Source: Aplysia californica
Lineage: Eukaryota
Direction of reading: 5' to 3'
DNA: 64,000 nucleotides
NCBI RefSeq assembly: GCF_000002075.1
Contig: NW_004797776.1
Coordinates: 30,203-94,202 of the forward strand
Position numbers and translations under genes: made by a program. How positions within the stretch are numbered: position 1 is the stretch's first letter; the number at the start of each line of letters is the position of its first letter. Below, in pieces: positions 2,860-38,442 of the stretch. The notes beneath the pieces were generated by a model that saw only the letters and a program-made list of their open reading frames with translations, ran no database searches and had not been told where the DNA came from.

Positions 2860-2914
<55 letters not shown>

Positions 2915-14258: not shown

Positions 14259-14735
14259 GGGCTCGCGTCGGCGGTCTTGGGGTAGCTAGGGTGCTCGCCT
14301 CTCATTCAATAATAGGTTCCGGGTTCAAATCCTGACAGCGACGAGAAAATTAGAGAAATTTCTCCGTTCACCTCCTTTCTTGCTCTCTAATTATGTTCTA
14401 TAGTCTGCTTTTGTCTCCACTTCCCCCCTCCCCCTCTTCTGGGCTCCTGAATCTTTCTGCAGCCTTTCAACTGCTACTCATTAATTCTCCTTTGTGCTGT
14501 CTTTCCGCAACACCCCTGATCTTAGGGTACATAAGATCGAACATGTAGCCTTCTCGGGTAAGGGTGAAAATGAAAAATTTTGGAGGTCCTGTGTGCAAGT
14601 CCTAAAACCGGGAAGAGTGGGCTGAAGCCGCCTCCCGGTCAAAATTAAAATATTAATTCCTACCAAACTGAACATGTTTAATGTGTGCCTCGCGCTCATA
14701 TGACCTTATGCGGTGGCGAGCGCCGTAAAACAATT
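14259..14735 (+). mobile_element. tRNA-derived MetaSINE-like element; related copies at ~18430-18915, 21622-21800 (-), 23886-24037, 31270-31670 and 53760-54005
   Basis: B-box-like GGTTCAAATCC. Across the family, a central GAGGTCCCGTGTG / GCACGTTAAAGATCCC / AAGAGTAGG segment resembles the Meta domain. 3' tail is GCGCTCATATGACC...GAGCGCCGTAAAAC. Confidence 0.65.
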
Positions 14736-14844
14736 TTTAAAAAATAAAAAATAAAAAAACAAAAATACAGATGGCAGAAAGTAAATTTGATCGCCACTTG
14801 CCACTTACACTTGTCAAATATTGCTAGCTTATTTTGGGAAAATG

Positions 14845-14845
14845 G

Positions 14846-14895
<50 letters not shown>

Positions 14896-15942
14896 GCTGT
14901 TGTTGTTATCATCCAGCAACAGCTGGGCTCTCGCCTTTCTGTCCAATGCCATGCAGTGATAAGTGCAGGTTTGCTGCAGTTGCAGTAAAGTTCCATAGAG
15001 TGTGTTGTTAATGTTAGGTCTCGGAGGGAGAAGGGTAGTCTGATGTTATTTAGGGCCGAGCAGTGGAACAGGTGATGATCCACAGTCTCATATGCACAGT
15101 CACACAAGGGGCACATTGGGGGAAGTTCCGGGTTTATTCTGTTCAGGTGGGAGTTGAGCTGTATAATATGTTCTGTTCTAGTTCGTAGGCGGAAGATCGA
15201 GGTCTGTTTCTTTCTCTGTATGTGGTTGATATTGTCATTCCTTTTTGTTGTGGTCATATGTTTGAAAACTGCTGTGTCTGTCTTTCCCAGGGCCCATCTG
15301 TTCATCCAATCTTGTTTGTTGTTGCTTTTAATTTGTTTAGCAGTGTTGTAAGAAGTTGGAATGTTGGGTTGTTCCTGTCTCGATCTCCGTTTGGCAAGTG
15401 TGTCTGCTCTGTCATTTCCAGGTATGTTTGAGTGTCCGGGGACCCACTGCACTACTAGGTTGGTGCCACAGAATGTTATAAGATGATGGGAGCCAAACGG
15501 TATATTTTGAGTCAAATCTCGGTTTAGATGATGGTCATTTTCTACGGCTTGTAAGACTGATAGTGAGTCAGTGAAAATCACAATACTCTGTGCTTTTCCA
15601 GGATGAGTGTCAAAAACTATGCGGAGATTGTACAGTGCTGTTTTAATTGCCATCATTTCTGCATCGTAGTTTCTGCATTTCTCTCCACAGGCTGCAGAGA
15701 CCTCATTGGAACTTCCATCTGGGTACTGTATTAGTATTCCATATCCGGCTTTGGTTGTGCATTTGAATGCTGAGCCGTCCGTATAGACGTGTATCCACTC
15801 ATCTGAATAGCTGTCGATTGTTTGATGTGATGCAAGCATCAGCGTCACTGGGTCTGAAGATTTGGTGCTATTGTCTCTGAGAGATGTTGTAATGATAGGC
15901 TTTTTTAAAAAGAAAAGTGGGGAGGGATGTTTTGGTTGACTG
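14845..15942 (-). mobile_element. 3' fragment of an RNase H-containing non-LTR retrotransposon (I/Ingi group)
   Basis: Translates to VYTDGSA...YDAEMMAI...IFTDSLSVLQA...QWVPGHSNIPGNDRADTLAK (RNase H) and a C-terminal CPLCDCAYETVDHHLFHC motif, followed by a (CAA)n tail. Confidence 0.9.
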
Positions 15943-16230
15943 TATGTATGTATAGTATAAGGTTTTACGGCGCTCGCAACTGCTAAGGTCATATGAGCGC
16001 GCGAAACACAAGTTGTTNNNNNNNNNNNNNNNNNNNNNNNNNNNNNNNNNNNNNNNNNNNNNNNNNNNNNNNNNNNNNNNNNNNNNNNNNNNNNNNNNNN
16101 NNNNNNNNNNNNNNNNNTGGATGGCTCTTGTGGTGTTATGTTTTTGTTGTAAAACCCCAAAAAATAAAATAAAGGCTCAAATGAAGCCCAAGGGAAAAAA
16201 CAAAAAGCAAAAAAAACAAAACAAGACAAG

Positions 16231-17593
16231 ATGAGCGCCGCTGTAGTTCTCGTCCTCTTCTCCGTCCTGACTGCGACACAAGCGTGCGGTCAGTACCTTT
16301 TGGAAAACTAGAATTTTAACATGCAGTTAAGAGGTCCGTTTACAGAATAGAGTTTACCGAAAGAAAAGTATAGAATTATGTTAGTGTTGAGTTGCCAATA
16401 TCTTTTCAAAGTTGTTTGAAAAAAAGGTGGCTGGAAGTACACCAATTTTTAGCTACTGTTTTACTAACTTCAGCAGTGCCACTAAGACGGTTAGCACAAC
16501 GCAGAGTCTTGCTATTTGGAACTGACAGAATGGTATAATAATATCACATCATGAAAAGCTGGGGGTCAAATTGCAAAAGGGAGGGGGGACAAAGACAAAA
16601 TACTGACAACTTGCTTCTTCACACTAAAGCTGTTTGCTTTTCTTTCTCATAATAAAAAAAATATGAATACGTCTTGGTTGAAAAAAAATTAGAAATTTGT
16701 AAAATAAATAATATAGATCATTGCATGTTACCTCTTCATTTCATGCCAAAATTAATTTGATGTTTTTGTTTTTCTGTTGCCCCTCCACCTCTATTGCTCT
16801 CCACATTTCTAACTCCCTAGAGGGTCCGGACGTGTGCAATGTAATCAGGATGGAAAGTTGGAGCTACGAGTACTCCGAGAAGATTGTGGAAAACGCCACA
16901 TGGGTCCTCAACATGACGGTCGTAGATCGGCAGTCCGCGACTGAGTGTACCCTGGGTGAATCCTTCGGATACCAGAAAGCTACCCTGTGGGTGAATCACG
17001 GCTGTCGAGCTGCTTTCAAAGTTTGTTATCTCCCAGGTAAGTTTTAGTAAGTTTTATTACACTTGCGACATAATGTTATAAGTGCCGAATATTGTTATAA
17101 GAGAATTAACTAACCCGCCAGAAAGTAGAGGACGACAGATGTTTGTTAGGAAAGGTGCAAACCACACAAGATCACCACCTGCCAACAACCCACATGTCTC
17201 CGGTAAGAACACTTGATTCGTTGTGATAAGCAAAATGTAAGGTGCTTGACGAAGCTTATTTTATTTCTTCAAAAGGCTCTGTTCACTTTTCTTTCCTAGC
17301 AACGTTTCCTAATTAATGTTCATTAGTTGAGAAAAATATAGATTGTGCCGGACCTTTTCAAGAAATGTTAACGTCGTTCAGAGAATGTGTAGTTCGTTAT
17401 CCTCGTCATTTCTGACTCCCCAGTGAGGTCGACCAAGTGCAAAGTACTTACGATGGAAAGTTTGAACTATGAGTACGCCGAACAGAAGGTGAAGAAGGCT
17501 GCACTGTTCATCAACATGACCGTTGAAGATCAGCAGTCCGAGGCCAGTTGCGATCTGGATAAATCCTTCGGCTTCGACAACCCGCTACGTTAA
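16231..17593 (+). pseudogene. Egg-lectin-like gene, copy 3, truncated; exons 16231-16288, 16821-17036, 17424-17593
   Basis: Exon 3 breaks at 17580 (TTCGACAA|CCCGCTACG) and joins sequence equal to copy-1 position ~6313. The reading frame ends FGFDNPLR*, and exon 4 is absent. Confidence 0.82.
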
Positions 17594-19142
17594 TGTACGC
17601 AATTTGTGATGAAGCGTGATAAAGTGTGAGTGCTGACGCTGTGGACCCCGGCTCTAACATAATGGTCACTGTTAAATCCAGCATAAAATAACATTATACT
17701 AATACATTTTTCTAAAAAGCTTTTATAGCCTACTTATAAAGAGAAAATATCAGATATCAAAACTGGACGCTACCATTAAACTTCCTTCATACTATCTCAT
17801 AAGTCCACTTCCAATGGGAATCCCAAACTGCCTCAAACAACCTGTATGTTCAAAGCTTGAAGGCAGATTCACCCGGGTTATCAGCATATATAATTATTAT
17901 ATTTATCTAGAATGACACCAACAGAGCCGATAGTGCGCCCTGTATACGTCGGCCACGGTACAGAATCAGACTAAATAATTTTGTGAGGCATCATGGTGAA
18001 ATCAGGCGCTCGTTAAAACAATAAAATCGAAGAAACAGACATTTTTCCCCCTCAAGTTTGGCAATTTGTGTCGAATTTTTATATCTTTTGGACTCAACAC
18101 ATTACACGTCCATAAAACTACTTTTCCGTGTGAATTTTACTGAACAACTTTGGTTATAACACAAAATATGTAAATTTTCAGTTTTCAAGGACTCTCAAGC
18201 TATAGAAGTTACAAAACCTTGACGACCATTTTCTCGCATTTCTTTTTTACCTCAGAAAACAGGTTAACCCCAATCAAGACAGATGGGTATTTTCTTCACC
18301 GAAAAAAAAGGACAAATAAACAAGCGCTACGGATATACCAATAACTCCACATTCCCATAAAATGACGAGCGCCTGATTCCACCGCGTCATGATAAATGTG
18401 TTGATGCTATTGTAGAGATGCAGACGTGGGCTCGCGTCGTGGTCTTGGGGTAGCTAGGGTGCTCGCCTCTCATTCAATAATAGGTTCCAGGTTCAAATCC
18501 TGACAGCGACGAGAAAATTAGAGAAATTTCTCCGTTCACCTCCTTTCTTGCTCTCTAATTATGTTCTATAGTCTGCTTTTGTCTCCACTTTCTCCCCCAC
18601 CCCCCACCCCCCTCTTCTGGGCTCCTGAATTTTTCTGCAGCCTTTCAACTGCTACTCATTAATTCTCCTTTGTGCTGTCTTTCCGCAACACCCCTGATCT
18701 TAGGGTACGTAAGATCGAACATGTAGCCTTCTCGGGTAAGGGTGAAAATGAAAAATTTTGGAGGTCCCGTGTGCAAGTCCTAAAACCGGGAAGAGTGGGC
18801 TGAAGCCGCCTCTCGGGGCAAAATTAAAAAATTAATTCCTACCAAACTGAACATGTTTAATGTGTGCCGCGCGCTCATATGACCTTATGCGGTGGCGAGC
18901 GCCGTAAAACAATTTAAAAACAATAAAAAATTAAAAAACAAAAATACAGATGACTGATAGTAAATATGATCGCCACTTGCCACTTACACTTATCAAATAT
19001 TGCTAGNNNNNNNNNNNNNNNNNNNNNNNNNNNNNNNNNNNNNNNNNNNNNNNNNNNNNNNNNNNNNNNNNNNNNNNNNNNNNNNNNNNNNNNNNNNNNN
19101 NNNNNNNNNNNNNNNNNNNNNNNNNNNNNNNNNNNNNNNNNN

Positions 19143-22100
19143 TGGGCTCTCGCCCTTCTGTCCAATGCCATGCAGTGATAAGTGCAGGTTTGCTGCAGTT
19201 GCAGTAAAGTTCCATAGAGTGTGTTGTCAATGTTAGGTCTCGGAGGGAGAAGGGTAGTCTGATGTTATTTAGGGCCGAGCAGTGAAACAGGTGATGATCC
19301 ACAGTCTCATATTATGCACAGTCACACAAGGGACCCATTGGGGGAAGTTCCGGGTTTATTCTGTTCAGGTGGGAGTTGAGCGGTATATGTTCTGTTCGTA
19401 GTTCGTAGGCGGAAGATTGAGGTCTGTTTCTTTCTCTGTATGTGGTTGATATTGTCATTCCTTTTTGTTGTGGTCATATGTTTGAAAACTGCTGTGTCTG
19501 TCTATCAAAGGGCCCATCTGTTCATCCAATATTGTTTGTTGTTGCTTTTAATTTGTTTTGCAGTGTTGTAAGAAGTTGGAATGTTGGGTTGTTCCTGTCT
19601 CGATCTCCGTTTGGCAAGTGTGTCTGCTCTGTCATTTCCAGGTATGTTTGAGTGTCCGGGGACCCACTGCGCTACTAGGTTGGTGCCACAGAATGTTATA
19701 AGATGATGGGAGCCAAACGGTATATTTTGAGTCAAATCTCGGTTTAGATGATGGTCATTTTCTACGGCTTGTAAGACTGATAGTGAGTCAGTGAAAATCA
19801 CAATACTCTGTGCTTTTCCAGGATGAGTGTCAAAAACCATGCGGAGATTGTACAGTGCTGTTTCAATTGCCATCATTTCTGCATCGTAGTTGCTGCATTT
19901 CTCTCAACAGGCTGCAGAGACCTCATTGGAACTTCCATCTGGGTACTGTATTAGTATTCCATATCCGGCTTTGGTTGAGCATTTGAATGCTGAGCCGTCC
20001 GTATAGACGTGTATCCACTCATCTGAATAGCTGTCGATTGTTTGATGTGATGCAAGCATCAGCGTCACTGGGTCTGAAGATTTTGTGCTATTGTCTCTGA
20101 GCGATGTTGTAATGATAGGCTTTTTAAAAGAAAAGTGGGGAGGGATGTTTTGGTTGACTGTTTTGTTGAATTCGTTTCTTTGGTTTCCATGTTTCTACTA
20201 ATTTCCTGTTTGGGGGGTTGGGGCACATTCTTATAGTTCTTTCATGTAGCTCAAAAACTACTTCTGCGGATTCCCTGGGGTTCAACATTTGAAAGGATTT
20301 TGCACGCGGCGGTAGGTGTGGATCTCGTGCCACCATTTAAAACAACGAAGGGCATCGTTTTGGACCTTGTCAAGGGTGTTGCAAGTAGTTGTATTGCACA
20401 TAGTGAGTAAGCTGTCGCTGTATTCCAGAGAAGATCGGACATAACCAAGGTATAGAGCTCTCAGAGTTTGTTTGTCTGATCCCCATAAACTGCTTGCGAG
20501 TTTCTTAAAAAGTTGGAGCCCTTTTATTTGTGCCTTTTTCCTTATGTTCTCCACTTGGCTTTTCATGGACAGACTATGGTCAAGTTTGTCTCCTACGTTA
20601 GGTTGGATGTTCTTCTTTGTGGACATTTTCATTTCCTATCTTTAGTTTGAGATTTTCTTTGGCTGCTTTTTGGCTCTTCGTAAAGATGGTGTATACTGTT
20701 TTCGTGCAGGTTATTTTAAGTTTCCATTTCTGACAGTAATTGTGGAGCCTCTTGAGGTCTTCATTTAATTCCCTGCTTCTACAATCGTGCTGTGATGTGT
20801 CTACCAGAGAGCAAAATCATCGGCATAAATCATAAAGAGTCTTTTCTGATTTTAGCACGTTCGCTACATCATTAAAGAAGATCTAATCAGGAACAAAGTG
20901 CAACTCAGACAGGAACGTTGAAGAAAGCGTTCCTCGAGTACTTCTCTTGACGAGTGGGCATTGCTTGCCTTGGTTTCAATTTTTCGATCCGACAGGAAGA
21001 ACTGGATCCATTTGTAAAGTTTGCCATGTATCCCGAGGTCCATCGTTTTCATGAGTAGGCCTTTTCTCCACACTCTGTCGTACGTCTGTTGGATGGAGAT
21101 CTACAAAGATGGCGACAGTGTGTTTAGTCTCCTGAAATCCATCCTGGATGTTTTGACTCAGTTTAAAACGTTGATCTTCTGTGTTGCTGTCTTTTCTGAA
21201 ACCTGTTTGGTGTGGGTTTAAGCTGTTACTGTTAGTGTTTTCCAGGTACCAGTAGAGGCGGTTGTTCACCATTCTTTCAGCAATCTTACCGATACATGAT
21301 GTTAATGAGATAGGTCGGTAGCTTTGCGCTTCTCCAGCTGGTTTCCCCTTTTTTAGGAGCGGTATAATCTGGGCGATCCTCCATGCCTTTGGTATTCCAC
21401 TCGTTCTCCACGTGGTGTTTATCAGGGAAAGAAGAACTTCTTTTCCTTTATCACCAAGGTTGCAGAGCATTTCGTTGCGCATTTTATCTGGTCCTGGTGC
21501 TGTCTTTTCCTTTAGCTTTTTGAGGGCCTGACTGAGTTCCATCATCATGCTATAATATGATCCTCTTCAAAAAGCGAGTTGTTCACAGTAGGGGCTTTTT
21601 CTTTGTTTGTATTTTGTAAAGTGTTTTACGGCGCTCGCAACTGCGTAAGGTCATATGAGCGCGCGGGACACATCTAATATTTTCAGTTGGTAGGAAATTT
21701 TTGAATTTAGCCCGGGTGGCGGCCGAAGCCTACTCTTATCGATTTTAGACCACCAAAGGATCTTTAACGTGCGCAACTTGCACACGGGCCCCCCGAGATT
21801 TTTCGCCCTGCTTTTTCTTTATGCTCAGCCCTATTTATGAGGAGTCTCCTCGGTTAGTCTGTCTCAACTGTCTGCCCTGTTTACAGAGGCGAAAAACCGT
21901 TTAAAATGTTTGGCTTTCTTCTGGTCTTCAGTGATGGTGCTGCCAAAGGAAAAAAAGGTTTGGGGTTGCTTTTTTTGTCTTTCATCCGAGAGGTTGCTGA
22001 CAAGGGACCAAGCCTTTGTTCCATTGTGGCGAAGGTCAAGATCTTTGCAGGTTTGAGTCCATTTCTCTTTTTTGGCTTTTTTTACAGTCACTTTCACCTG

Positions 22101-23590
22101 AGCGCATGTCTTGTTGTAGTGTATTTTGTTTATTGGTGATCGTGATTTTTCAAATGACTGTCTGGCTTTCTCTCTTTCTGCCACAGCAGTCTGGATTTCT
22201 TCACTCCCAAAACGGTTTGAAATTTCTTCGGCATCCCCGTGGAATATGCTGAGATTCAGCTTTAAGAATATTTTTGGGGACTTGTTCATTAAAAAGATCA
22301 GCATCTTCTGTTTCTGCTATGCTAGAGAGCAATTCGTCCGAGATCTTTTCGTATTCTGCCCAGTTGGCTTTCTTAAAAATCCTTTGAGTCCTCTGAGGGT
22401 GGTTCAATGCAGGTAGGGAGGTGATCTGTATAACGATAGGCCTGTGATCACTTCCTATGTCATCAATCACTTCGATGCGACAGGAGTTTTTAATGTCGGG
22501 TGAGCAGATGGTGAGATCAGGCCGGCTGAGAGTCAAGTGGGCTCTGTGAAGTAAGGTAGGGGTTGAGTTGACATCTTGTAACACAGATAGGTTGCTGGTT
22601 TCGCACAGCTCCTCAATCGTTCGGCCTGTGCCGTTATAGTGGACGTAGCCCCTGTTGTTACTGGAACATAAAACAAAGATTTTACACTACTAACCTTCTG
22701 TCACAGGAATTAGCCAAACCTGTTCCTCTGCTCTGTGTTGTGATTCCTTCCGCAGCTTTGGGGCCCCGATGCGTTGGATTGGAATCTCACACTTCACGCA
22801 CAACTGAACCGAGGCTCTAACTACCCTTTTCACAACCTATACTGTCAGCAGGCCTCCTCTGCCTTGATACAACTCTCTCCTCTCAAAGTCCCACCAGTGT
22901 AACTCAGACTTTTATACAACTAGCAAACAATACTACTGAACACAGACTCACACTTTGCTCACTCTCACACTTTCAGCCAAACAATATAATAGGCTAGGCC
23001 TAACCCCCTGCCACAACCAAAAACAACCAAATACACCACAGCCCCATTCAGGAGTGGCCATTGAAGTCACCCGCATAAATGGTTTTTCTCATAGTAGGCT
23101 GCTTGCAGATCAGACAAGTCGCATGTTGTTTGGGGGGGGGGGGGGGGCTGTAAACATTGTAAAGTGTGTACTTCCTACCAATGTGCCATATGGTGGCCTT
23201 CTGGGAATCTGTCGGTTGGGCAGATGATAAGTGTACGACATCTTCCTGAATATCGTTTCGCAGGTTAAGTGACTACACCGCGGCATCATGTTCATGTACA
23301 GGCGTAACTGGTGCATCCTGTGAGGTCCAGGTCTGTACCTTAGTGTAGGGTTTCTTGAAAGAGGCCAACATGAAACTGCCTGTCCTTCAGGACTTTGAGG
23401 AGTTCTGTTTTCTTGTTCCTCAAACCACAGATGTTGAGTTGCAAGAGGTTGAGGGTTGTAATTGGCTCCCTTCTCACGCCGAGAAATTTTCCGTGCTGAA
23501 TTAGCACTGTTTCTGCGTGTATCACCAGTATAAGTAGCTGACTTGTTGCTCAGAGCAGCCCGGTGATTGCGCTGCCTGGAGCGGACCTTG
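19143..23590 (-). mobile_element. Near full-length, degenerate APE-RT-RNase H non-LTR retrotransposon (I/Ingi group)
   Basis: APE motifs QLNICGL...FQET, GDFNGHS and SDHRP; RT motifs APGPD, YRPISLTSCIGK, QTGFR and YADD (~20816-20827); RNase H at ~19.5-20.0 kb. Many stops and frameshifts. Confidence 0.9.
22653..23040. mobile_element. Solo LTR (388 bp) inserted in the LINE endonuclease domain
   Basis: TG...CA termini and a perfect 5-bp target-site duplication GCCCC (22648-22652, 23041-23045). Removing it rejoins GDFNGHS.EWG|YVHYNGTG. Confidence 0.75.
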
Positions 23591-24577: not shown

Positions 24578-25174
24578 ACGTGAAATTATGAAATCAAGCC
24601 GGTGTCACCATGAAACATGATCAAGAAAAAAAAGGTAATTCACTGCTTGACATACTTTGAAGTTTGTCTGTGTAAAATTTTGTTTTTATACATGTATGTT
24701 GAATAATAAGAACAACACAGGCTTAGAACTCTCTAACTTCCTAAATGGAAAGTATCTATTACCGATGTGTACATGTATACATCTCTTTTACAAATCTCGA
24801 TGAGTGGGTACAACATCTGCCCCAAATGGGATTATGCCGAGGTATGAACTCTTGCGGGCCTCAAACGACACAGGCCGTCCGTGGGATATGCGATCCAAAG
24901 GCCACCCTTGAGGCCGCCTTGAGTGAGGCGACCCTGGCCAAAGGCACACACACAGCACAGGCTGGGACTGTGTATACCTAGTGCATACCAACGTGGCAAC
25001 AAATCACAAGTCTAACAATAGGTCTATATTTCAAAATATTTGAAAAAGAAGCAAAAGAGGCTTTAGTCCAAAACGTGGCTTCTCCATAGGTCTAAAGACA
25101 CAAACATCAACTTGCTTTGTGAATTGGTGTATTATTTTTCAGACTACAGGAATTATTTACGTTAGTTTTATTGC

Positions 25175-25405
25175 TTTAGTAAGGTTTTACGGTGCTCGTA
25201 ACTGCATAAGGTCATATATGAGCGCCAAGGGGTGGACGTCAACAGAGAAGTCCAAATGGGGAATCAGGCTCACTCTGCTCATCTCTCTAGCCTCAACAGC
25301 ACAAAGTCCGCTTCGACTATCAAGGCACCCCAGAAATAGCAGTTCACAAGAGATTGACAAACATACAAAAGAAGTAGAGGAAAAATGTCGACAGTAAGGA
25401 TGAGG
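25175..25405 (-). mobile_element. SINE-like repeat family; related segments at ~28805-28930 and 29890-30020
   Basis: Repeated sequence that shares the GCGCTCATA...GACCTTATGCAGTTACGAGCAC.GTAAAAC tail. Confidence 0.55.
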
Positions 25406-26100
25406 AAAGAAAAAGTAGCAGTTCCCCCTATGCTGTTTCGGCAAAGTATGAGCATGGCATTGATAATTCAGCCCATTTACAATTCTACTGTGCATAGGAA
25501 CATATTAATATCTCATCCGTTTGAATTTTAATTGATGTAGTCACAACATATAGACGCGTTACCAGGTAAACATGAGAGATGTAAATCTTTACATTTGAGA
25601 CTGATGAAGAGGAGGAGAAATAGGATTGATCTAGATCCTGAGACCAAGAACTGGATAAATAAAAAAGGGCATGTCTCGTTGAATTAAGAGACTTTTATCA
25701 TCAGTCAAAAGGTTGACCACTCTTTGCTCAGTATAAGTTGTGGTCTTCAGCCCATATTAAGTAAAGACTGATCTCTGAAAAGATACCCAGATGCCACGTC
25801 AGTTCATTTCAAAGTAAGAGGAAACCGTTTTGCTGACTGTGGGCCTGACCATGAGTCACTGTAGATTTTTCACCCTGATTATTTGGCTGAGATCCTTTTC
25901 TTTTAAAATCCTGAATTTTCCTTGCTCCCAAACACCAGACTCTTAGGCATCTACTGTAGTAGAAAGAAGAATACCACACGTAACTGTTGTACATCTACCC
26001 AAACAAAAAAAACTGGCATACATACAAATATACATAAATTTGTGAGTACATCATAACAACAAAAGAGAACTTTTCAAACAAATGTTAAAACAATTCCACT

Positions 26101-26106
26101 TTTATT
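26101..26106 (-). promoter_or_regulatory. Candidate SELENOF polyadenylation signal AATAAA (3' UTR about 1.7 kb)
   Basis: TTTATT on the + strand, downstream of the SECIS and followed by T/GT-rich sequence on the minus strand. Confidence 0.45.
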
Positions 26107-27213
26107 CCGAAAAACAACCAACCAGTCACTAATATTATTTAAATTTTGGCATCCAACGCAAATATTCAAATAAAGTTCAAGTTCAAGAACACTTTCACAC
26201 TTCCCAGCAGTACATATTCCTGATTATGCACTCAAAAAATATGTATCTATATAAATCTGAACTTTCTTGACTCATACTCATACAAGGTGGATTTGAGAAA
26301 ATACATTATACCAAAGTGCAATTCGAGTATGTACAGCGTTTTCCAAAATGAGAGAGTCTGAGAATGGGGGTCTGAAAGCACAGACAAGATATGAATAATA
26401 TAATGCCCTGGCAAACTCTGACCTGTACTCTATAACATACTGGGAGGTTTTCTTGCTCTCATTAAAAAAAAAAAACGTTCCTCAAGTATAAAAACTTAAC
26501 AAATCAAACACCAACGTTTTTTAATCGTGATCAAGTGATCCAAGTAGGAAAATGGAAGCTCATTAAGTATGTCAGAAGACACTTGTACATTCATCTACAC
26601 CACCATAAAGATATACAACAGGAAACACACTCACTCTCATAAAACAATCATCACTTGACGACCTCAAAGACCATAAATCATAAGAAACACTATCTAGCTG
26701 TTCCCTGCAATGTCTTGCCCATGTGATACCCCTCTATGTCACATGGTGGGCTACACAAATATGATAGCATCCAACGTACAAAGCAGATCTTACAATTTAA
26801 TGTCTAGCATTTAAGGTGTCGAACTCACACAAAGATCATTGGCTGGAATTCTGGAAGGGATGGAAAGGACTGTGTACCCCCTAAAGGGAACGATACCCTG
26901 TCTTCCTCGGTTCACCCAGATGCTAATGACAACTTTGAAATCATCAGAGACAGGAATTAAGAAAATTACTGCTGTAAGCACCTGATGGCAGCCACATTTC
27001 TTGTCCTTCTAGGGAGAGAAGACAAAACTGAATAAACAAGACTGCCAAGGAAGTTACTGTGAAGTGTTCTTTTTCTCTTAAAAGTCTTCCATTGAGAGGG
27101 GGACAAGACTAACAAACATCACTTTCACATGAAGTCTCTGTAGCTTTCACATGCATACAGCCAAGCACTCAAGTCAGAGTAGACTCAGTCACGTCAGGAG
27201 TTGTGTGTAACTC

Positions 27214-27290
27214 TCAAGACCTGTAGAAAACTATCAGTTCAGACACACCAACAGGTTTATTGCCCGAACGTCATCGGTACAGAATCTTGA
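27214..27290 (-). promoter_or_regulatory. SECIS element in the SELENOF 3' UTR
   Basis: Minus strand reads TCAAGATTCTGTA ccg ATGAC GTTCGGGCA ATAAA CCTGTTGG TG TGTCTGAAC TGAT agttttc TACAGGTCTTGA. This gives helix I, the AUGA/UGA non-Watson-Crick core, a 9-bp paired run in helix II (two G-U pairs), apical AAA and a possible form-II mini-helix. Confidence 0.9.
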
Positions 27291-27818
27291 AGCTCTTCCC
27301 TCTGACTGCAGTCGACAAGTCGTAAATGAAGACATTAATCTTACTCTCCTCCACAAAGTATAATGAAATGAAAAAAGAGAATTTCACTGAATTTCAACAA
27401 AATGGGAAAACAATCTAAGTGACTGAATGAAGAAAACAATACGAACTAAAAATAACATTAGGAAATTACACTGAAAACATTACAAAAAATCCAAGTACTT
27501 CAACAAGTGTCTCATTAAAAAACCAGTCCACTGCAGTCAGGGCACGCAAAAGGAAAATGAAAAAATTAGTTTCAACATGTTCCACACTATCCAGACTTTT
27601 ATCTAAAAATTTTGAATTTCACGCTTGTTTTCATTTAATACCAAAAAACAATAACCTAAAAAAAAAAGGCCAACTAAAAACCCATCAAGAAAATAATAAT
27701 TCCTTTAAAAAGTTTCAAATGTGTCTTTGTACGCGGATATGTAAAAAAAGACAAAACCATCTTCATTTTCCTTTTGTTCTCCTGGTCGCACATGAGTGTG
27801 CATGTGCTGTCGGGCGAC

Positions 27819-27997
27819 CTAGTTCTGGAGGTGCTCTTGGAAGAACTCCTCGACAGAGTCGGTGTTCCATTTGTCGATTCCCAGTGTCTCAACGACCTCG
27901 TGGTTCTTGTCCAGCAGCTTGATCACCGGATCGGCGCCACGCACATAGCGCACCGTCAGACCGGGGAACTGCTTGACACGGTCACTCTTCACGAATG
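27819..27997 (-). CDS. SELENOF: SELENOF exon 4 (thioredoxin-like C-terminus)
   Basis: AFVKSD...YVRGADPVIKLLD...WNTDSVEEF, TAG stop. Confidence 0.95.
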
Positions 27998-30900
27998 CTG
28001 TCGGAGGAAATAAAGATTATTATCAACTACGGTGTCTGAGGTCACAGGTCAACTAGGAGCAAATTTTTGGGGGAGATGACAAGTCTATACAAGTCAAACT
28101 CGGAGATGATGATGGGTTTTTATGTATCAGAAGAGCGCTTGTGAACTGGCTATGACATCTCCCCCACCTCCCGTTGTGAGCCGTATGCCGTGTCTCCATA
28201 TGAATGGTCGGCCTTAGAAACACATTCATATGTTGAGGCAAAAGGATGTAAAGGTGTGCTGCTCTCTCCCTCTTTTCCCGTCCCTTCCTTTCTTTCACCT
28301 CACCTCCTGTTACAAGGTTGCTTTGTCTCATTCTGTCCCTACCTCTGTTTCCCTTCACATCCGGGATGCTCCATTAGCTCAGTTGGTATCAGGTGGAATT
28401 TGGAGAAGATGACCCTGGTTCAAAACCCCAATGATTCTTTCTGAAATTAGCTTGTTTTTTGGAGTTCTTAAGGATTTCGACAAATTTGGCTCAGTCCTCT
28501 AGGAGATGGATGATAAATTCAGAGGTCCCGCCTTCCAAATAACCCCATAGTGTTGAAAAGGGCGTAAACCTATGCAATCTACCATTGCTTCTACCTTCAC
28601 CTCCCTTCGATCGTCTCTGTCTTGTGCTCTCATGTATTATATTACACTTAATTAGTAACAGCATGAAATGGACAAAGCTGATGGGGTGAGCAAATTTCAC
28701 AGAACAACAGAACAGACTTGAAGAACAGCCACACAAACGCAACAGAACAGAGTTTCAGTTTTCTTCTTATTCTTACTACCCATTACGCCATCTGGCGTTT
28801 CAGTTTTAGTAAGGTTTTACAGTGCTCGTAACTGCATAAGGCAAGGTCATATTAGCGCCATGGGGTAGATGTCAACAGAGAACTCCAAACGGGAAATCAG
28901 GATTACTCTGCTCACTTCTCTAGCCTCAACATAGGTAGCGTAAACACGGCCTTGCGGGCACTCGCGGCCTTCCGACCGCGTGGTATCAGTGAAATCGGGA
29001 TAATTCCGATCGCTGTTTCTTTGCTCTTTCACNNNNNNNNNNNNNNNNNNNNNNNNNNNNNNNNNNNNNNNNNNNNNNNNNNNNNNNNNNNNNNNNNNNN
29101 NNNNNNNNNNNNNNNNNNNNNNNNNNNNNNNNNNNNNNNNNNNNNNNNNNNNNNNNNNNNNNNNNNNNNNNNNNNNNNNNNNNNNNNNNNNNNNNNNNNN
29201 NNNNNNNNNNNNNNNNNNNNNNNNNNNNNNNNNNNNNNNNNNNNNNNNNNNNNNNNNNNNNNNNNNNNNNNNNNNNNNNNNNNNNNNNNNNNNNNNNNNN
29301 NNNNNNNNNNNNNNNNNNNNNNNNNNNNNNNNNNNNNNNNNNNNNNNNNNNNNNNNNNNNNNNNNNNNNNNNNNNNNNNNNNNNNNNNNNNNNNNNNNNN
29401 NNNNNNNNNNNNNNNNNNNNNNNNNNNNNNNNNNNNNNNNNNNNNNNNNNNNNNNNNNNNNNNNNNNNNNNNNNNNNNNNNNNNNNNNNNNNNNNNNNNN
29501 NNNNNNNNNNNNNNNNNNNNNNNNNNNNNNNNNNNNNNNNNNNNNNNNNNNNNNNNNNNNNNNNNNNNNNNNNNNNNNNNNNNNNNNNNNNNNNNNNNNN
29601 NNNNNNNNNNNNNNNNNNNNNNNNNNNNNNNNNNNNNNNNNNNNNNNNNNNNNNNNNNNNNNNNNNNNNNNNNNNNNNNNNNNNNNNNNNNNNNNNNNNN
29701 NNNNNNNNNNNNNNNNNNNNNNNNNNNNNNNNNNNNNNNNNNNNNNNNNNNNNNNNNNNNNNNNNNNNNNNNNNNNNNNNNNNNNNNNNNNNNNNNNNNN
29801 NNNNNNNNNNNNNNNNNNNNNNNNNNTGCTCAGCGGATATAGGCCTTTCAAATGAAACTGATAAATTTGGCATACAACTACTTTGAAAATTTAGTTTCTG
29901 GTACCTACTCAACAGCACAAAGTCTGCTTTGACTATCATGGCACCCCGGAAATAGCAATTCACAAGAAGAGTGACAAACATACGAAAGAAGTAGAGGAAA
30001 TATGATGATAGTAAGGATGAGGAACACACACATGGGAGCTGAGACACAAAAAAAAACCTTGTCTTACAGGCTAATGAGGAGATCAATAGAAGTATCGTCA
30101 CATGAATAATAAGGAGTGCTTCTTTTACTCTCACTATTTTTCTTGTTTTACTACGAGTTTTATTGTACTTGCACTGCAATTAGCTCATATAGTGCCAAAG
30201 ATTAGAGGTGTTACTAAAGAGTCACATACACAGAAAAGGAGGAGGAGAGATGAGGACGATAGATATTTGACAGAAAATAAGGAGCAAACCACACCAGAAC
30301 ACCCACCAAGCACCCAATCTCTTTCTTCATGCAAATATGTGCACATGGACTATGTTAATGGATCAATAATAGGAATAGGGAAAATAGTTGTGCATAAAAA
30401 CCAATAAATCTGTCGGTCACTTTGACACAAAAGGTTAGAACCATTTGTCCTAGCCAGTGAGCCTCAGTTACTAAATGATCTTCAGTGCGATATTAAACTT
30501 ACCCTGGACTTGTGGGAATCGACCCAATTTTCATCCGCACACAGCTAACTCAGCAAAGGGGTATTTCTGAGGGAACAGAAAGAAACTCAATGAGAAAAAG
30601 CACTTGGAAAGTGCAGGGAGAGGTAGGAAATCAATAGCAGCCAAGTAAAAGTGAAGTTAAAGCCTACATTTTGATCGTTTTTCACTGACAACATTTTTAC
30701 ACTTCCTACTATCAGTAATTAGTATCACAGAGGCTACCACAAAATCATCAATGCGACAACTGCCTCCAAGAGGTAAGAACAAATGGCTTAAACAAAGGAA
30801 ATTACCCAGTTTACATACAGTATAAATGAAAAAGTTAATCCAAAGAAATGAAGAGAAATCCTGTAACAAGAAAGAGAGAAGGAATCCACTCGGCTCAAGT

Positions 30901-33900
30901 CTTCTACATCCCTTACAGAGGGAGTCGTTAGCAATTACAGGGCTGAGAATGGCATTCCACAAATTTTGAATTCTTCCAGTCATGAAGAAGAATAAAAAGT
31001 ACTCGATTGAATGGTACCAGCCGACACAAAGATGTGCACGCATCTCGGTTTTGTCCAGCGAGCAAATAAAAAACTTCTAAAATTATTATTGTCTTTTATT
31101 CAATTCGTTTTTTTATTCTTACTACAATATATCATTATAATACGAAACTCGGAAAAAAGGCGGAAGAGGCATTCGGACGAGCGAACGGCGGTGTTGCAAT
31201 GAGCGGACAATTCTCAGCCCTGAATTAAAAGCATTACTGTAACCATCTCTACAAGGAATAAAATACTGTCTCAGGGGCTCCTGTCGTCTACAGGTATGAT
31301 GCTCGTTTCTTATTCAGAAGATCCTGGGTTTGAAACCTGACAGCAACGAAAAAACTGTCTTCTCTAAAATTTTCTCCTTTCACCTGTTCTGCTTTCTGCT
31401 TTCATCTCAATTTTCTTACCCCATTCCTAGCTTCCTCCTTTACTCAAAACTTTTCATACTGTTGTACCTACTTCAGGCTCCTTCTTACTACTGTCTTTCA
31501 GCCACATCCATGATCTTAAAGCAGGTAAGATCAAACACGTCCCCTTCTCGGATTAGGGAAAAAAATCTTTAGCGGTCCCGAGTGTAAGTTGCGCACGTCA
31601 AAGATCCCTTGGTAGTCCTAAACTCAATAAGAGTAGGTTTAAGTGGCCAGTCAGGCAAAATTCAAAATTAATACTTAACAAGACAGAAAATACTTTAGTC
31701 AATATAAAAATATACTATAGTACCTTCGAAAAATGATTGTGGCTGCCTGAAGGCAAGGAACCCTATGAAGAAGGAAAGTTACAAGTAATAATCAGTCGCA
31801 CTGCAGGTTGAAGAACCAGCACTCGACTACCCCTGAGATAAAGCAGGGGAATGCAAAGAAAAAGAAGAAATACTGATTCCTTCATGGTACATGCTCCTTT
31901 TCTTTCATTTTATTACTGTATGCACTGGGCCATGTTCTAAATGTTCTACATGACCTATTTGTAATTAGCAGGACTTCAAAAATAAAAATAAAAACAAGGC
32001 TCACAGTAATCCCAGCTTCCTCCTCCTTATCTTTCTGGCAACACTCTAAACAGTCGAGCTTGATGGCACCCAAGTTGAAGTCGTCCATCTTCAGGCATGT
32101 TGAACACATAAGGTTGTTGGTGAAGCCTTTCAAGGAACATTCTCGCACAAAGTCAAGACTACAATCTCCAACATACACCTGAGAATAAGATGGAACAGAA
32201 AACGTAACACAGTACTCAATAAAGAGGAAAATAAATGCTTACACTCTTAGCTATCAACTTAAAAAAACAAACTTATTTATTGTGTTTTTAAAAAAATTAA
32301 GAAAGAATTTGTAACAATAGACAACACACCTGGTCCACATCCGACAATTGCATCTCCTTTCTACACCTCATGGTATTATAAGCAAACAGAAAAAATAAAG
32401 TAAAAGTGAGTAAACTGAAGGGGACAAATTGCACACCACAAATGTTGCGTTATCAGACTATCATCGACAAATTTCTCAGTGGTAACGAAAGCGAAAGTAG
32501 ACCTTGATTTTCCCGATCGAGCCTCAGGGTCACATACATTTCCGCCTACCGCCATAGCCGCCTGTTTGCATTTAAATGTACTGTCGGACGGGGAAAAGCT
32601 GAACGAATAATATTATCACAATGTGATTTAAAGAATATCTAGAATCTAGATCTAGAGTCTAGATGAGCCATTGCCAAAACGTGGGGAAAAACACACACAT
32701 CTCACATTAGTGTGCATAAAATGTGATGCATTAGTATTTATTCCTCCAAAACATATACACACGTCAAATATAGGATGTAGAACCTGCATTAGCAGTTTCA
32801 GACCCCTTGTCAGCTTTGCAATCTTGAGTTTGTAAATTTTGTGCCAAAAATGTTCGTTTTTTAGTGATTCCTGGAGTGTCATTTTGAGCACACCAATGCA
32901 AACTTCCAAGAATGTCCAAAATTTAGTATTTTTGGTTGTGTTTTTTTTATGTGTGCTTTGATTCTATGTTATTTGTCATTGAGAAAGGTTAACTTGCTCA
33001 AGAAATCGGTTTATTTGTTTGCAAATAGACGAACAATTCGGATTACTTGTGCGTCTGTCGTGTCGTCACGGACTAGGTGTTTCAGAAAACACCATTATTT
33101 TTCAGTAGAATCACCGTAGCTGGTTAAATCTCTTTGCCTATCGTCGTTTATTCAATACTTCAAAAGCCGCGATGTGCGAAAGGAACATCGGGTTCCTAGA
33201 TCTACGATTTCGGTCGGCTGTTTAACATTCGCCGTTATTGTCGTCAATTTGCGACGTGCCGAAGTCCGAATTTCGCCCACTTTTGTTTTGAACGGGTTAT
33301 CAAAAGTGCCCGGATATAATTGTTCTCTTGAGTGACTTCCCCTTACCCGCGTCCCGAGAACAACGGAAGCAACGGGGGAAACAGAAAAACGAAAGTAGTC
33401 ATTGCCTTCAGCGTCCGGTGACGCACAAGAATTTTGCGTTGAATGTGATGTATTGGGCTGTTTTGCGTGTTTTTAGGCTACTCTGTTGAATATTTTAGTG
33501 AAATTGCGGTGCTTACACTGGATTCCTGGAACAAGAGTGTGATGTGTGAACAAACTTCGAGAGATGGATCATTTCTGTGGTTATAGATTTAGCTTTTGTG
33601 CTCAGTGATGACGTTTGGGGTGTCGTCATGCAGCCGTACAAGACTGACTAACGTACAAGAAATTACATTGTCCTAAGAGCAAACATTTTTTAAGTAATGT
33701 GTGCTCTCTTTACTCAAACATATAAACAAACATGTCCTTGTTTATCTGTCTAACTCAAAAATACACATGTTCTTTGTTGGTATGATATACCTTTTTCCAA
33801 TACATTGTGTCATTGTGTCATCATTGTTATGTACAAGTAATATTTTTCATAATTGCTAATATCAATAAGTTTTCAACATATATTTCATGCATGCAAGATT

Positions 33901-36850
33901 CATTTAGAAGCAAAATACGCCTTTATTGATCTGTGTATCTCTTAGTGCAAATTTGTTCTTTGTAGGCATGATTTTACCTTTTCCCAGTATGTTTTGTCAT
34001 CACTGTTATGTACGAGTACTGTTTGTCATAATTAGCCACATAATTGTGATCGTCCACTGTCTTTGATATGACCTGGTATCTGTTTCAAAGCAAAAGAAAC
34101 CTCTCCTGTTTTTTTGTTTATTTTTAAAGTGCGCTTTTATCTCTGGAGGCAAGACTTTTGTCTTTTCCTGTACATTGTGTCATCATTGGTACAAGTCATG
34201 TTTGTCATCACTGTTATGTACAAGTCAGCTCCATTGATTTTGTGCTTTTGCCTCATATTAGTTAAAAAATTGTTTTACACATGTGTTTTTCTGGTACTGA
34301 GGCTTTGATAACTGTATTTGTACAGCCTTTCACTATTGTGATGTGTTGTCAATGATAATGTCCAATGTGTATCCTTTCTTGTACATAACAATGATGACAT
34401 GTTCTGTGCACTGCGTCATTGTTACAAAGCTTGCCATTCACATTACCATTATGAATGGAGTTCATAGTGTACAAAGTGTTTGTTTACTAAACAAATGGAA
34501 TTTAAAGTCTATAATTTGCCTTGCTGCTTATCTGTTTTTGTCATCACTGTTACATACAAGAAATACAGTAGTTGCCAAACCAATAAACCCATATCTCCAA
34601 AACCGTACATCTCCTTGCTCTGATACTCTAGGAATATGAGCACTAAATGTCAATCTGTGACTGACAGAAAAGAGAGTCAAATTGGTAAGAAAAATTTTTT
34701 TGCACCACTGAGTCTCAAGGGAGTCTCACGTTTCGGCAATTGCTCAGATAGATCTCTATGGAAGTGGCTTTCCTCACCCGAGGTGAGAATAAAAATACGA
34801 TCGACCTCTCAACCCGGGTGAGACTTGCCACCGTTGGCTATTCTCACCCGGTGTGAAACAAGACCTGTTTTTCCTAATTTCTGAATACTGTCTATTGGTG
34901 TGGATGATCAAATTGATCAAAGCAAAGAAAAAATTACGTATTATAGCACAAAAGTAAGCTACTTTGATCGTCTACAAAGATGCTATGGCTATTTCACTTT
35001 TCGAATCGAGCCGAACTACGCGGGTCACCATTTTGTTTTGCTCAGAAGTTCTCGCAAGATCTACTCCTCCCCTCTTCTCTCTCTCTGTCTCTTTCCGAAT
35101 CTGTCTATCGGTGTGGACGATCAAATTGACAAAAAGAAAGCTTAAAAATGATGTTAAAACACAAAAGTAAATTAATTTGGTCGTCCACAAAGATGCTACG
35201 GCTATTTAACTTTTCGAATCGAGCCAAACTACGCGGGTCACCATTTTGTTTTTCCCGGAAGTTCTCGCGCTTCCTCACTCTCTGTCTCTCTCTCTCCACT
35301 GCCCAAAGACAAAATTGCACGCTTTTAGGCTAGGCTAACAGTAGAAATGGAACGTTTGTTCACGCCACGGAATTCTACAATTCTGTTATAATTATATCAC
35401 AGTGTAGAATTCTGTGGTTCATGGTGAACGCAAAACTGGTTGGCCTCGCCTGCGCTATTCTCACCCGGACCCAGGGCCAGGGTGTGAGAATAGGCCGTCA
35501 TTATTCGGGCTCGAGTCCGAATAACATTTTTTTCATATATTCGGACTCGAGTCCGAATAAGAAAAAATGTTTTTCGGACACGGGTCCGGAGAAAAGGAAG
35601 TGTCTTCGTTCTATAGATCTAACGTTCAGTGCTTCCAATTTTCCACCATTTTTTAGTTTCCCCAACACCTTGTCTGCCGATCCGATGCCCACCGCCTCAT
35701 TGATACGCCCCCCCACCATGTTTCCTACTTTCTTTGTTGTAGAAAAAGGTAAAATTGAAGATAAGCAGATCTCCTGGCACCTGCATATTATGAGCTGTGT
35801 AAAAAAAAAAAGACCGATTCGTTCAAATACACAAGCCTGTGTCATCTCGATTGTTTACCAAGAAAAAGTTGTGTTGCTGTGTAGAGCCGAGCATACGGCA
35901 ACTTTTGATTCCATAGACCAGCTCACAATTCATTACGTAGATCTACGTCAAGACTAGCTTATTATTGTAATAATGATCAGTTTCCGGGGGGGGGGGGGGG
36001 ATGATAGCAAAATCGATAGCATCCCCCCCTCCCCTTTCCCGACACGCACACACAGCCGCATGTGTGCAGGCCGTCCATCCGACCCCGACACACACTAACG
36101 AGCCATCTTTAATTGCTCTGATGACCTCTTGACAAATAAACATTTATTAAACATTTATTAGTCTAAGCGCTGTAACTTTTCAGGCTGGCCTCAAATTCAT
36201 CATAAGATAAAAACTCGGCTCCGTCACAACTTAACGCCATTTTGCCCGAAGTGATCCCAGTCTCTACCCAGCCTGAGGCTGAGGCGAGTCACGAGTGAGG
36301 CAGGACAGGAAGCTGGAGTCACAAGTCACAGGAAGTCAGAAGTGATGTCATGCTGGACAAGAATCAGAGTCCGAATAACATTTTTTCATATTCGGACTCG
36401 AGTCCGAATAGTCACTTCGGCTTCGGTGAGAATAGAGGTGGCCTGCTGGCCTAGATCTAGATCTATAGATCTAGAATTATATATTAGATCTAGATCTAGC
36501 ACTCAGCGGAAACCTAGACTGCAGCGTTGACACCTCAAACAAATGTAAACTCTGAAAAATATCTAGCAGGAATTTAAACTAAAATGCTGCGGTTGCAGAT
36601 TAGCTGAAGGTAGTGAAGATGCCGTGACAAGATTTGAAGATGACGTGTCGTCGCCGACAGCGCCACACAAGTTTGTTCTTACATTAATTAACTGGTTTCC
36701 CGGTACTACTTTAATCTAAAAACAAATACTTTTTCACATCAAATGGGGGATACAACATAAAAGACCGCCATGACTAATTATAATTTGCACATGTCATGTT
36801 CTCACCATAAACATTAGCAGAAAGGATACAAGTTGTATCCAATCCGCCAT
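27819..36850 (-). CDS. SELENOF: Selenoprotein F (15 kDa selenoprotein, Sep15), 153 aa including Sec; exons 36850-36806, 32178-32005, 30566-30503, 27997-27819
   Basis: The spliced 462-nt ORF reads MADWIQLVSFLLMFM|VYVGDCSLDFVRECSLKGFTNNLMCSTC...CLECCQKDKEEEAGIT|KYPFAELAVCGUKLGRFPQVQ|AFVKSDRVKQFPGLTVRYVRGADPVIKLLD...WNTDSVEEFFQEHLQN*. It has canonical GT/AG sites, consistent phases (0,0,1), a signal peptide, a Cys-rich region and the CGU motif. Confidence 0.95.
30503..30566 (-). CDS. SELENOF: SELENOF exon 3 with the Sec codon TGA at 30533-30531
   Basis: KYPFAELAVCG(TGA)KLGRFPQVQ; CAG acceptor and GTAAG donor. Confidence 0.95.
32005..32178 (-). CDS. SELENOF: SELENOF exon 2 (Cys-rich region, UGGT-binding in mammals)
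   Basis: CAG acceptor and GTGAG donor; EC..KGFTNNLMCSTC...CLECCQ. Confidence 0.93.
36806..36850 (-). CDS. SELENOF: SELENOF exon 1 (signal peptide)
   Basis: CCAAGATGG start context, MADWIQLVSFLLMFM, GTGAG donor, phase 0. Confidence 0.8.
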
Positions 36851-37400
36851 CTTGGCAGAATTTAGTAGTCGATAAATGTACAATTAACGTCAACAAACCA
36901 GGTTTCCTTTGGTGGAAAGCTTCGTTCTTTAAACGATTCAGCTTATTTAATGTAATAATAAAAAGAAACGCACACTAGCGAAACATCAAACTAGTTCAAC
37001 AGTTAGGATAAATCATTATGTATGTAACTTCACCTGAAGCCAAATGCTCCTCAGAAATTAAATTTTTTTTTATTGGGCCTAATTATTATATAGATCTAGA
37101 TATCTAGATCTAGTTAAAGAGGATTTTCAGCCCCAAAGAAAGAAACACTTTACCAACAAGCAATCTAAATATTATTATTGTTTTTAATTTGGCTATGGGT
37201 GTCTACTCTATTATACGGGAATGCTGATAATAATAATTAGAGATTCTGAAAATAAAATAGAAGCAACTGAAAGGCAGGAAGATTCCTTGGAAGGAGGAGG
37301 AGTCAAATGAGGTGGCGAACTGAGTCAAGAAGCTCGCGAGTAGGCCTACTGCTCATTTGAAAAAGAGACAAAGGAGTTGTTTTTTTTCTTCCCCACACGC
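36851..37400. promoter_or_regulatory. Putative bidirectional promoter shared by SELENOF (-) and MAN1B1 (+)
   Basis: The SELENOF ATG at 36850 lies in a YY1-like CAAGATGGCGG. A strong + strand donor GAG|GTAAGT near 37575 suggests a non-coding MAN1B1 first exon. Transcription starts cannot be seen directly. Confidence 0.5.
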
Positions 37401-37406
37401 GACGCT

Positions 37407-37474
37407 TGTTGTTGTTGTTGTTTCTTCTTCTTCTTCTTCTTCTTCTTCTTCTTCTTCTTCTTCTTCTTCTTCTT
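37407..37474. repeat. (TTG)n(TTC)n microsatellite
   Basis: Read directly from the sequence. Confidence 0.9.
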
Positions 37475-38442
37475 TCGTGTTATAGTCTCTGGCCTCTGGT
37501 TGCACCAGAGCAAGCTGATTGCACTTTTGCATCCTCTCAGGGAAAAGCAAAAAGTACACATAAATTCCAAGGGAGGTAAGTTGTCACTTGTCAGGAGTTT
37601 CTCAAGTCTCGAAGAAGAGGGCTGGAACTTGTAAAATAGGCCTAAAATATTGCACTGCGTTGCCCAGAAACGTAGAGGTGAAACATCTGTTTGTTCATTG
37701 TTTTAGTAAACTGTGCTTAGACTTAGACGAGTTAACCACCGTGGACATTCTGTAGTGAAAGTGTATCGCTCATCTTTCAAATTGGTGCTTAACCAATTAA
37801 AACAAAAATTCTGCATCTTGAGTCTTGAGTCTTGAACTTGAAGTGAAGACGGCGATTTTGTAGTTTCGTTCGTTAAAGTCAAGAGTAGGGGGGACCTACA
37901 CACCTAATAAAAATATGGGGGGGGGGGGGGGTTCAGCTGGGCATGCCCCGTTTAACTGTATTTCAACCATATAATTTGATGGCTTGCAATTAGTATTGGT
38001 ATAAAATTCTCTCGTTTGCGGCGCATCAAACATTGTTTGTATCAGCATGTACAGCGAAAACACATACTAATCGCTGGGGCCAAACCAGATTATCCCTGCA
38101 TTTATAACTCAACTGTAACTTAAGTATGACAGTGCTCGAAACTAAAGTGGTTTCCAACTATTGTAATAGTATGCCTGATAAATGCATGGTCCACTTTAAC
38201 TTTAAAAAAGCATGCTGGCAGCACAGAACTAAATTTTTCTAATTATTATCGGATAATTATTATGTAGTCGCTTGTAAGTGACATAAAGTGCATATCAATT
38301 TGAATCATGAGGATATTGCTTGCAGATTAAAATCTAAGTTTTTAAAGTGGGGCGGGGGGGGGGGGGGGGGGCATCACGAGGATTTGATCTCCCATCCTTC
38401 TACCCCTCTCACATATATACACATACACTCAATCATGTGTAT

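What the first reader, a model, noticed from the sequence alone, without database searches (positions are those of the whole stretch)
27214..30566. Hidden selenoprotein: in-frame TGA in a 64-nt exon plus a well-formed SECIS about 530 nt after the stop
Seen in the sequence: the CG-TGA-K exon, phase-consistent splicing, and a SECIS hairpin with the AUGA/UGA core and apical AAA. Established knowledge: Sep15/SELENOF uses a CxU redox motif and needs a 3' UTR SECIS. The ORF track shows only one of the four exons, and automated pipelines often truncate such genes.
Basis: partly seen in the sequence, partly recalled or inferred. Interest (0 to 1): 0.7.

Follow-up and report, generated by a model that had tools for sequence, protein, structure and literature searches.

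The report
Sea-slug selenoprotein F (Sep15) gene
This is an ordinary, spliced and expressed four-exon selenoprotein F gene of a sea slug, whose internal UGA codon is very likely read as selenocysteine through a hairpin in its 3' UTR to make a protein predicted to help fold glycoproteins in the endoplasmic reticulum.

Summary
Confirmed, but ordinary. The minus strand holds a single-copy, four-exon SELENOF (Sep15) gene (36850 to 27819; 153 codons; TGA at codon 85 in C-G-U-K). All three junctions occur in a transcript contig, and two further contigs carry the TGA. Poly(A) tails map to 26081-26088, so the SECIS (27282-27221) lies inside a 1.7-kb 3' UTR. The SECIS scores 28.6 bits in Rfam, below the 35-bit cut-off, but is the only rule-based hit in the window (7 of 1000 shuffled UTRs give one). 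tRNA-Sec, SepSecS, eEFSec and UGGT-like genes are in the genome. Selenium incorporation itself is inferred, not shown. A neighbour matches an Aplysia californica protein at 100%. Sel15 is already reported from the mollusc Lottia, and this scan noted Sep15/SelM genes on other DNA before. Side findings: the AAUAAA in the SECIS loop shows no sign of use as a poly(A) signal; the UGA lies only 28 nt before the last junction; all 7 named mollusc records lack the CxU motif; the gene stands head to head with ER mannosidase I, a neighbourhood apparently kept in two other heterobranchs.

The parts
36806..36850 (-). Coding exon 1 (45 nt, ATG at 36850): hydrophobic N-terminus, likely signal peptide
   Evidence: Junction to exon 2 (intron 4627 nt) in a contig of run X10; aligns with N-termini of P0006, P0012, P0014. 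A hydrophobicity scan alone ranked it only 9th of 136 candidates.
32005..32178 (-). Exon 2 (174 nt): Cys-rich domain with six conserved Cys (29, 40, 43, 58, 61, 62), predicted UGGT-binding part
   Evidence: in X10 contig with 0 differences; single match in the genome
30503..30566 (-). Exon 3 (64 nt) with C83-G84-U85; in-frame TGA at 30533-30531
   Evidence: both junctions in RNA; TGA in contigs of X4 and X11
27819..27997 (-). Coding part of exon 4: rest of the thioredoxin-like Sep15 domain, TAG stop, no KDEL-type tail
   Evidence: PF08806 72.7 bits; PDB 2A4H Sep15 68.8 bits against 2A2P SelM 19.2 bits
26085..27818 (-). 3' UTR, 1734 nt
   Evidence: One contig of X11 covers 25930-27998 without a break; poly(A) tails at its end; length
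27214..27292 (-). SECIS element with apical mini-stem (type II-like); an AAUAAA hexamer (27261-27256) forms its apical AAA
   Evidence: no variant listed within it in the contigs of X4 and X11
26081..26106 (-). Main poly(A) signal AATAAA (26106-26101) and cleavage sites 26088, 26085, 26081
   Evidence: Untemplated tails of about 50 nt in 76 of 484 laid reads (X21) and 49 of 375 (X22), among the rows shown

Best explanation
The four exons are spliced into a polyadenylated mRNA that keeps both the in-frame UGA and the 3' UTR SECIS hairpin, so the UGA is likely recoded as selenocysteine to give a 153-residue selenoprotein F that is predicted to work as a thiol-disulfide oxidoreductase in the endoplasmic reticulum. 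Shown: gene structure, splicing, the UGA in transcripts, a poly(A) site beyond the SECIS, and tRNA-Sec, SepSecS and eEFSec genes in the genome. Inferred from the family: SBP2 binds the SECIS core, and eEFSec delivers Sec-tRNA to UGA85. The signal peptide then sends the protein into the ER, where the Cys-rich domain holds it on UGGT. There the C83-x-U85 centre reduces or rearranges disulfides of misfolded glycoproteins.
For: Exon phases close into one frame with a single internal TGA. That TGA lies in the column where 37 of 72 relatives have Cys, 20 have W (unnamed records, likely TGA read through by another code), 1 has R and 14 lack the motif. All three junctions are in one run's contigs, and the exon 3-4 junction is in 4, 5 and 2 raw reads of three runs. 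TGA is in contigs of two further studies. The SECIS is the best Rfam match and the only rule-based hit in the window. Poly(A) tails lie about 1130 nt beyond the SECIS. The genome holds tRNA-Sec with a TCA anticodon (79 bits), SepSecS, eEFSec and a UGGT-type catalytic domain. The gene is single-copy. Family features are from passages of PMC6266307.
Against: The SECIS is below Rfam's gathering score (28.6 against 35), and the 62-nt span alone folds only modestly better than shuffles (z -1.72). My rule-based scan was written after I had seen the element. None of the 72 relatives retrieved carries a U, so Sec in relatives is read from W, from gaps and from the literature. No protein-level evidence of readthrough, ER location or UGGT binding was obtained. 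SBP2 and PSTK were not searched.
Confidence: 0.96

Rival explanations
1. The TGA is a true stop: the gene is a pseudogene or makes only an 84-residue Cys-rich fragment, and the hairpin is chance.
For: SECIS under Rfam's cut-off; no direct test of readthrough.
Against: The frame stays open and conserved after the TGA (up to 93% identity over exon 4). It is the only copy in the genome. The TGA lies exactly in the redox column. The machinery is present. A chance SECIS arises in 7 of 1000 shuffled UTRs.
Confidence: 0.015
2. The functional mRNA avoids the UGA by skipping or shortening exon 3, as public gene models of other molluscs suggest, or carries a Cys codon (assembly error).
For: All 7 named mollusc records retrieved lack the CxU motif.
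Against: Those models break in different ways, which fits annotation error (a known pattern: passages of PMC12822975). Skipping 64 nt would shift the frame. No exon 2-4 joint is among the joints shown (28 joints were not shown). Contigs of X4 and X11 carry TGA.
Confidence: 0.01
3. It is a selenoprotein of the same Pfam family but SELENOM or SELENOE (Fep15), not SELENOF.
For: PF08806 covers both Sep15 and SelM. No tree with SelM sequences was built.
Against: Sep15 68.8 bits against SelM 19.2 bits. It has CxU rather than CxxU, a Cys-rich domain and no KDEL-type tail. The named relatives that carry a family name are called selenoprotein F, 15 kDa selenoprotein or, in one case, Sep15/SelM.
Confidence: 0.015

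Closest known systems
SELENOF / Sep15 (human 15-kDa selenoprotein; Drosophila Sep15 structure PDB 2A4H; Pfam PF08806)
   Same: Signal peptide, Cys-rich domain, CxU in a thioredoxin-like domain, no ER-retention tail and a 3' UTR SECIS (features from PMC6266307 passages; met here).
   Different: Four coding exons here, against five in the human gene (recalled, not checked). The UGA ends 28 nt before the last junction, under the 50-55-nt rule, whereas human SEP15 is a predicted NMD target (PMC4911915 passages). The insect orthologues retrieved have Cys in place of Sec.
Lottia gigantea Sel15 (Jiang et al. 2012, PMC3473315)
   Same: A single molluscan Sel15 selenoprotein gene (Table 1 passage).
   Different: Other gastropod lineage. 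I did not see its sequence or exon structure (supplement not read).
SELENOM (PDB 2A2P)
   Same: Same Pfam domain; ER selenoprotein.
   Different: Only 19.2 bits. SelM has CxxU, lacks the Cys-rich domain and has a retention tail (recalled).

Membership tests
SELENOF (Sep15) | Sep15/SelM thioredoxin-like domain, closer to Sep15 than to SelM | tested here: met
   PF08806 72.7 bits; 68.8 against 19.2 bits
SELENOF (Sep15) | CxU redox motif with in-frame UGA in the spliced mRNA | tested here: met
SELENOF (Sep15) | N-terminal Cys-rich domain | tested here: met
   Six Cys in exon 2, conserved in the aligned relatives that cover the region
SELENOF (Sep15) | N-terminal signal peptide, no C-terminal ER-retention signal | tested here: met
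   Hydrophobic exon 1 (8-residue mean hydropathy 2.79) and no KDEL-type end; no dedicated signal-peptide predictor was available
SELENOF (Sep15) | Binding to UGGT and ER location | not tested
   A UGGT-type catalytic domain gene exists in the genome; binding itself was not examined
Eukaryotic SECIS-dependent selenoprotein gene | SECIS with AUGA/GA core, helix II and apical AA in the 3' UTR of the same mRNA | tested here: met
   inside the polyadenylated UTR; score is under Rfam's gathering cut-off
Eukaryotic SECIS-dependent selenoprotein gene | Sec machinery in the genome | tested here: met
   tRNA-Sec, SepSecS, eEFSec; SBP2, PSTK and SPS2 not searched
Eukaryotic SECIS-dependent selenoprotein gene | Selenocysteine in the protein | not testable with these tools
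   Needs 75Se labelling, mass spectrometry or a reporter
SELENOM | CxxU motif, no Cys-rich domain, retention tail (recalled) | tested here: not met
   CxU, Cys-rich exon and no such tail; weak match to 2A2P

The most novel reading that the evidence does not exclude
SELENOF and ER alpha-1,2-mannosidase I stand head to head and share a bidirectional promoter that heterobranch gastropods have kept. The refolding arm (UGGT-SELENOF) and the degradation arm (mannose trimming) of glycoprotein quality control would then be co-regulated as a linked pair. Basis: the start codons lie 2434 nt apart and diverge. The two genes have consecutive accessions on same-length contigs in Bulinus and Plakobranchus, but lie on different contigs in Candidula and Mizuhopecten (2 of 4). 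Orientation in those species, transcription starts and co-expression are untested, and plain inherited gene order explains the data as well.
Probability: 0.15. Interest if true: 0.4.

Novelty: new member of a known kind. Interest (0 to 1): 0.17.

Why it matters
Modestly. It gives a correct, RNA-supported model of SELENOF in a neurobiology model mollusc, where GenBank-type models of 7 of 7 named molluscan relatives lack the catalytic CxU motif. Two details are testable: an AAUAAA inside the SECIS loop that shows no sign of use for cleavage, and a UGA placed so that the exon-junction rule would not mark the mRNA for decay. It opens no new biology unless the link with ER mannosidase I proves functional.

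Tried and rejected
(1) AAUAAA in the SECIS loop as a poly(A) signal that would cut the SECIS: sense depth is 0 over 27260-27769 in both raw runs, against 110-180 at 26070-26239, and no tail is shown there (51 loose-end rows not shown, one study only). Not supported. The ATTAAA at 27639 is likewise unsupported. (2) A recoding stem-loop (SRE) after the UGA: 16 windows folded, best z -1.28; exon-3 piece z -0.66. Not supported. (3) A second copy or paralogue: one match each for PF08806 (1 of 4 candidates scored) and for exon 2; an intron-split SELENOM could be missed. (4) A public record of this very protein: none among 72 and 2 hits. No retrieved record bears U, so this does not show that the gene is unannotated; RefSeq status is unknown. 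(5) The index search listed no holder on record as RNA; the evidence comes from the lays. (6) A weak Pfam match of exon 3 to a conotoxin family (E 0.027, under cut-off) was taken as chance. (7) Literature: 'selenoprotein + gastropod + SECIS' gave 0 papers; 'Aplysia + selenoprotein + selenocysteine' 11 papers, none on this gene by title or abstract start among the 9 listed; 'SELENOF + MAN1B1' 2 unrelated papers by listing; the SECIS/AAUAAA search listed 7 of 8 papers, none opened. PMC1769511 passages gave nothing on SEP15 exon structure. (8) No structure or complex prediction was run: the fold is settled by the PDB match.

Full report
Observation. The minus strand carries a 64-nt exon at 30566-30503 between a pyrimidine-rich AG acceptor and a GTAAGT donor. 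It reads C-G-TGA-K with the TGA at 30533-30531. A hairpin at 27292-27214 has AUGA at 27274, a matching 3' UGA, a 9-bp helix and an apical AAA with a small mini-stem. Rfam's SECIS_1 model is the best of 5 matches in 25000-33000, at 28.6 bits and E 0.022, below the family cut-off of 35. Folding z-scores are -3.37 (79 nt), -1.72 (62 nt) and -3.36 (39 nt). A SECISearch-like rule of my own, written after seeing the element, hits only this site on both strands of the window, and 7 of 1000 shuffled UTRs.

The gene. Four coding exons close into one frame: 36850-36806 (45 nt), 32178-32005 (174), 30566-30503 (64) and 27997-27819 (179), with GT-AG introns of 4627, 1438 and 2505 nt. The frame has 153 codons and one internal TGA, at codon 85. 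Exon 1 ranked only 9th of 136 candidates in a hydrophobicity scan, but it is fixed by a transcript junction and by the N-termini of relatives. Exon 4 matches PF08806 at 72.7 bits, and Drosophila Sep15 (2A4H) at 68.8 bits against 19.2 for SelM. The gene is single-copy by two genome searches. Intron 3 contains a stretch of N that cannot be read, but transcripts join exon 3 directly to exon 4.

RNA. Of 24 runs listed I laid 6. Contigs of X10 show all three junctions, and raw reads of X21, X22 and X23 show the exon 3-4 junction 4, 5 and 2 times. Contigs of X4 and X11, from two other studies, continue from exon 4 into exon 3, and the 30 letters shown end with the TGA. The contig runs are only guessed to be RNA, but spliced junctions make that reading safe. 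The raw runs look like 3'-end libraries (inferred from their profile). Reads pile on the sense strand at 26070-26409. Untemplated tails appear at 26088, 26085 and 26081, 13-20 nt after AATAAA 26106-26101, in 76 of 484 and 49 of 375 laid reads among the rows shown. The SECIS is therefore inside a 1734-nt 3' UTR. A second pile at 27770-28024 holds about 6% of the summed depth of the main one in both runs. It ends at an A-rich purine run with no poly(A) hexamer just before it. Internal priming is the likelier cause; a minor SECIS-less isoform is not excluded.

Relatives and machinery. Among 72 relatives of exon 4, the column of the TGA holds Cys in 37, W in 20 and R in 1, and the motif is missing in 14; none bears U. 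The W records are all unnamed and likely reflect TGA read through under another code (inference). All 7 named mollusc records lack the motif and break in different ways around it, the pattern described for selenoprotein misannotation (PMC12822975, passages). The genome has tRNA-Sec (79 bits, anticodon TCA), SepSecS, eEFSec and a UGGT-type catalytic domain. An exon of the neighbouring gene matches an Aplysia californica protein at 100%, which names the likely species.

Mechanism. Shown: structure, splicing, UGA and SECIS on one polyadenylated mRNA, and machinery in the genome. Inferred from the family (PMC6266307, passages): SECIS-directed insertion of Sec at codon 85, entry into the ER by the signal peptide, retention through the Cys-rich domain on UGGT, and thiol-disulfide exchange by the CxU centre on misfolded glycoproteins. 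I put this at 0.96. The rivals (true stop, exon skipping or Cys codon, SELENOM/E identity) share the rest.

Differences from the human gene. The UGA ends 28 nt before the last junction, so the 50-55-nt rule would not mark this mRNA for decay. Human SEP15 is a predicted NMD target, although it did not respond to selenium in that study (PMC4911915, passages). That the human gene has a further intron is recalled, not checked. The apical AAA is part of an AAUAAA (27261-27256), yet sense reads are absent over 27260-27769 in both raw runs. In those samples it shows no sign of use as a poly(A) signal; sequestration in the hairpin is a guess. No recoding stem-loop was found after the UGA.

Neighbourhood. 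An ER alpha-1,2-mannosidase gene (GH47) starts at 39284 on the plus strand, 2434 nt from the SELENOF start codon and diverging from it. The two genes have consecutive accessions on same-length contigs in Bulinus truncatus and Plakobranchus ocellatus, but lie on different contigs in Candidula and Mizuhopecten (2 of 4). Both act in glycoprotein quality control (established knowledge), but kept gene order among related gastropods needs no function, and no transcription start was mapped.

Novelty. Sel15 is reported once in each of five invertebrates, including the mollusc Lottia, and twice in amphioxus (PMC3473315, Table 1 passage; supplement not read, it may bear on exon structure). Searches showed no paper on this gene in this species, by listing only. 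Whether RefSeq annotates it could not be determined. This scan has no note at this place and has noted Sep15/SelM genes in other genomes (AI notes, not tested). Verdict: real, correctly read, a new or simply unlisted member of a well-known family; interest 0.17.

Noticed in passing
window 39284-63245 (+), runs on beyond the matched part: ER mannosyl-oligosaccharide 1,2-alpha-mannosidase (GH47, MAN1B1-like) gene, head to head with SELENOF; adjacent accessions in Bulinus and Plakobranchus, not in Candidula or Mizuhopecten.
   Followed up: partly
window 37320-37585 (+): Possible untranslated first exon of the mannosidase gene: a GTAAGT donor near 37578 and a CTCGCGAG palindrome near 37334, 500-700 nt from the SELENOF start codon; read by eye only.
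   Followed up: no
window 27261-27256 (-): AAUAAA forms the apical AAA of the SECIS; no 3' ends seen there.
   Followed up: yes
window 27770-28024 (-): Minor pile of sense 3'-type reads, about 6% of the main pile, ending at an A-rich run just after the stop; internal priming or a SECIS-less isoform.
   Followed up: partly
window 1-19000: A unit of about 7.1 kb repeated two to three times at 93-100% in most 300-nt blocks, carrying DUF3011 exons at 593, 1274, 7704, 8385 and 16712: a recent tandem gene array, or an assembly duplication.
   Followed up: partly
window 14829-16289 and 19003-22686 (-): Broken LINE-type retrotransposon pieces: endonuclease, reverse transcriptase and RNase H matches.
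   Followed up: no
window 50015-50536 (+): Weak DDE_Tnp_1_7 transposase fragment, under the cut-off, in an intron of the mannosidase gene.
   Followed up: no
window 25300-25510, 28850-29030, 29830-30320: An abundant interspersed repeat, present in RNA on both strands, downstream of the gene and in intron 3.
   Followed up: no
G000:C194:133384-133557 and 135472-135645 (-): The last part of the eEFSec fourth domain matches twice with the same score, 2.1 kb apart: a duplicated exon or an assembly duplication.
   Followed up: no
L002:1501-1586 (-): tRNA-Sec gene with TCA anticodon, the one strong match of 22.
   Followed up: yes
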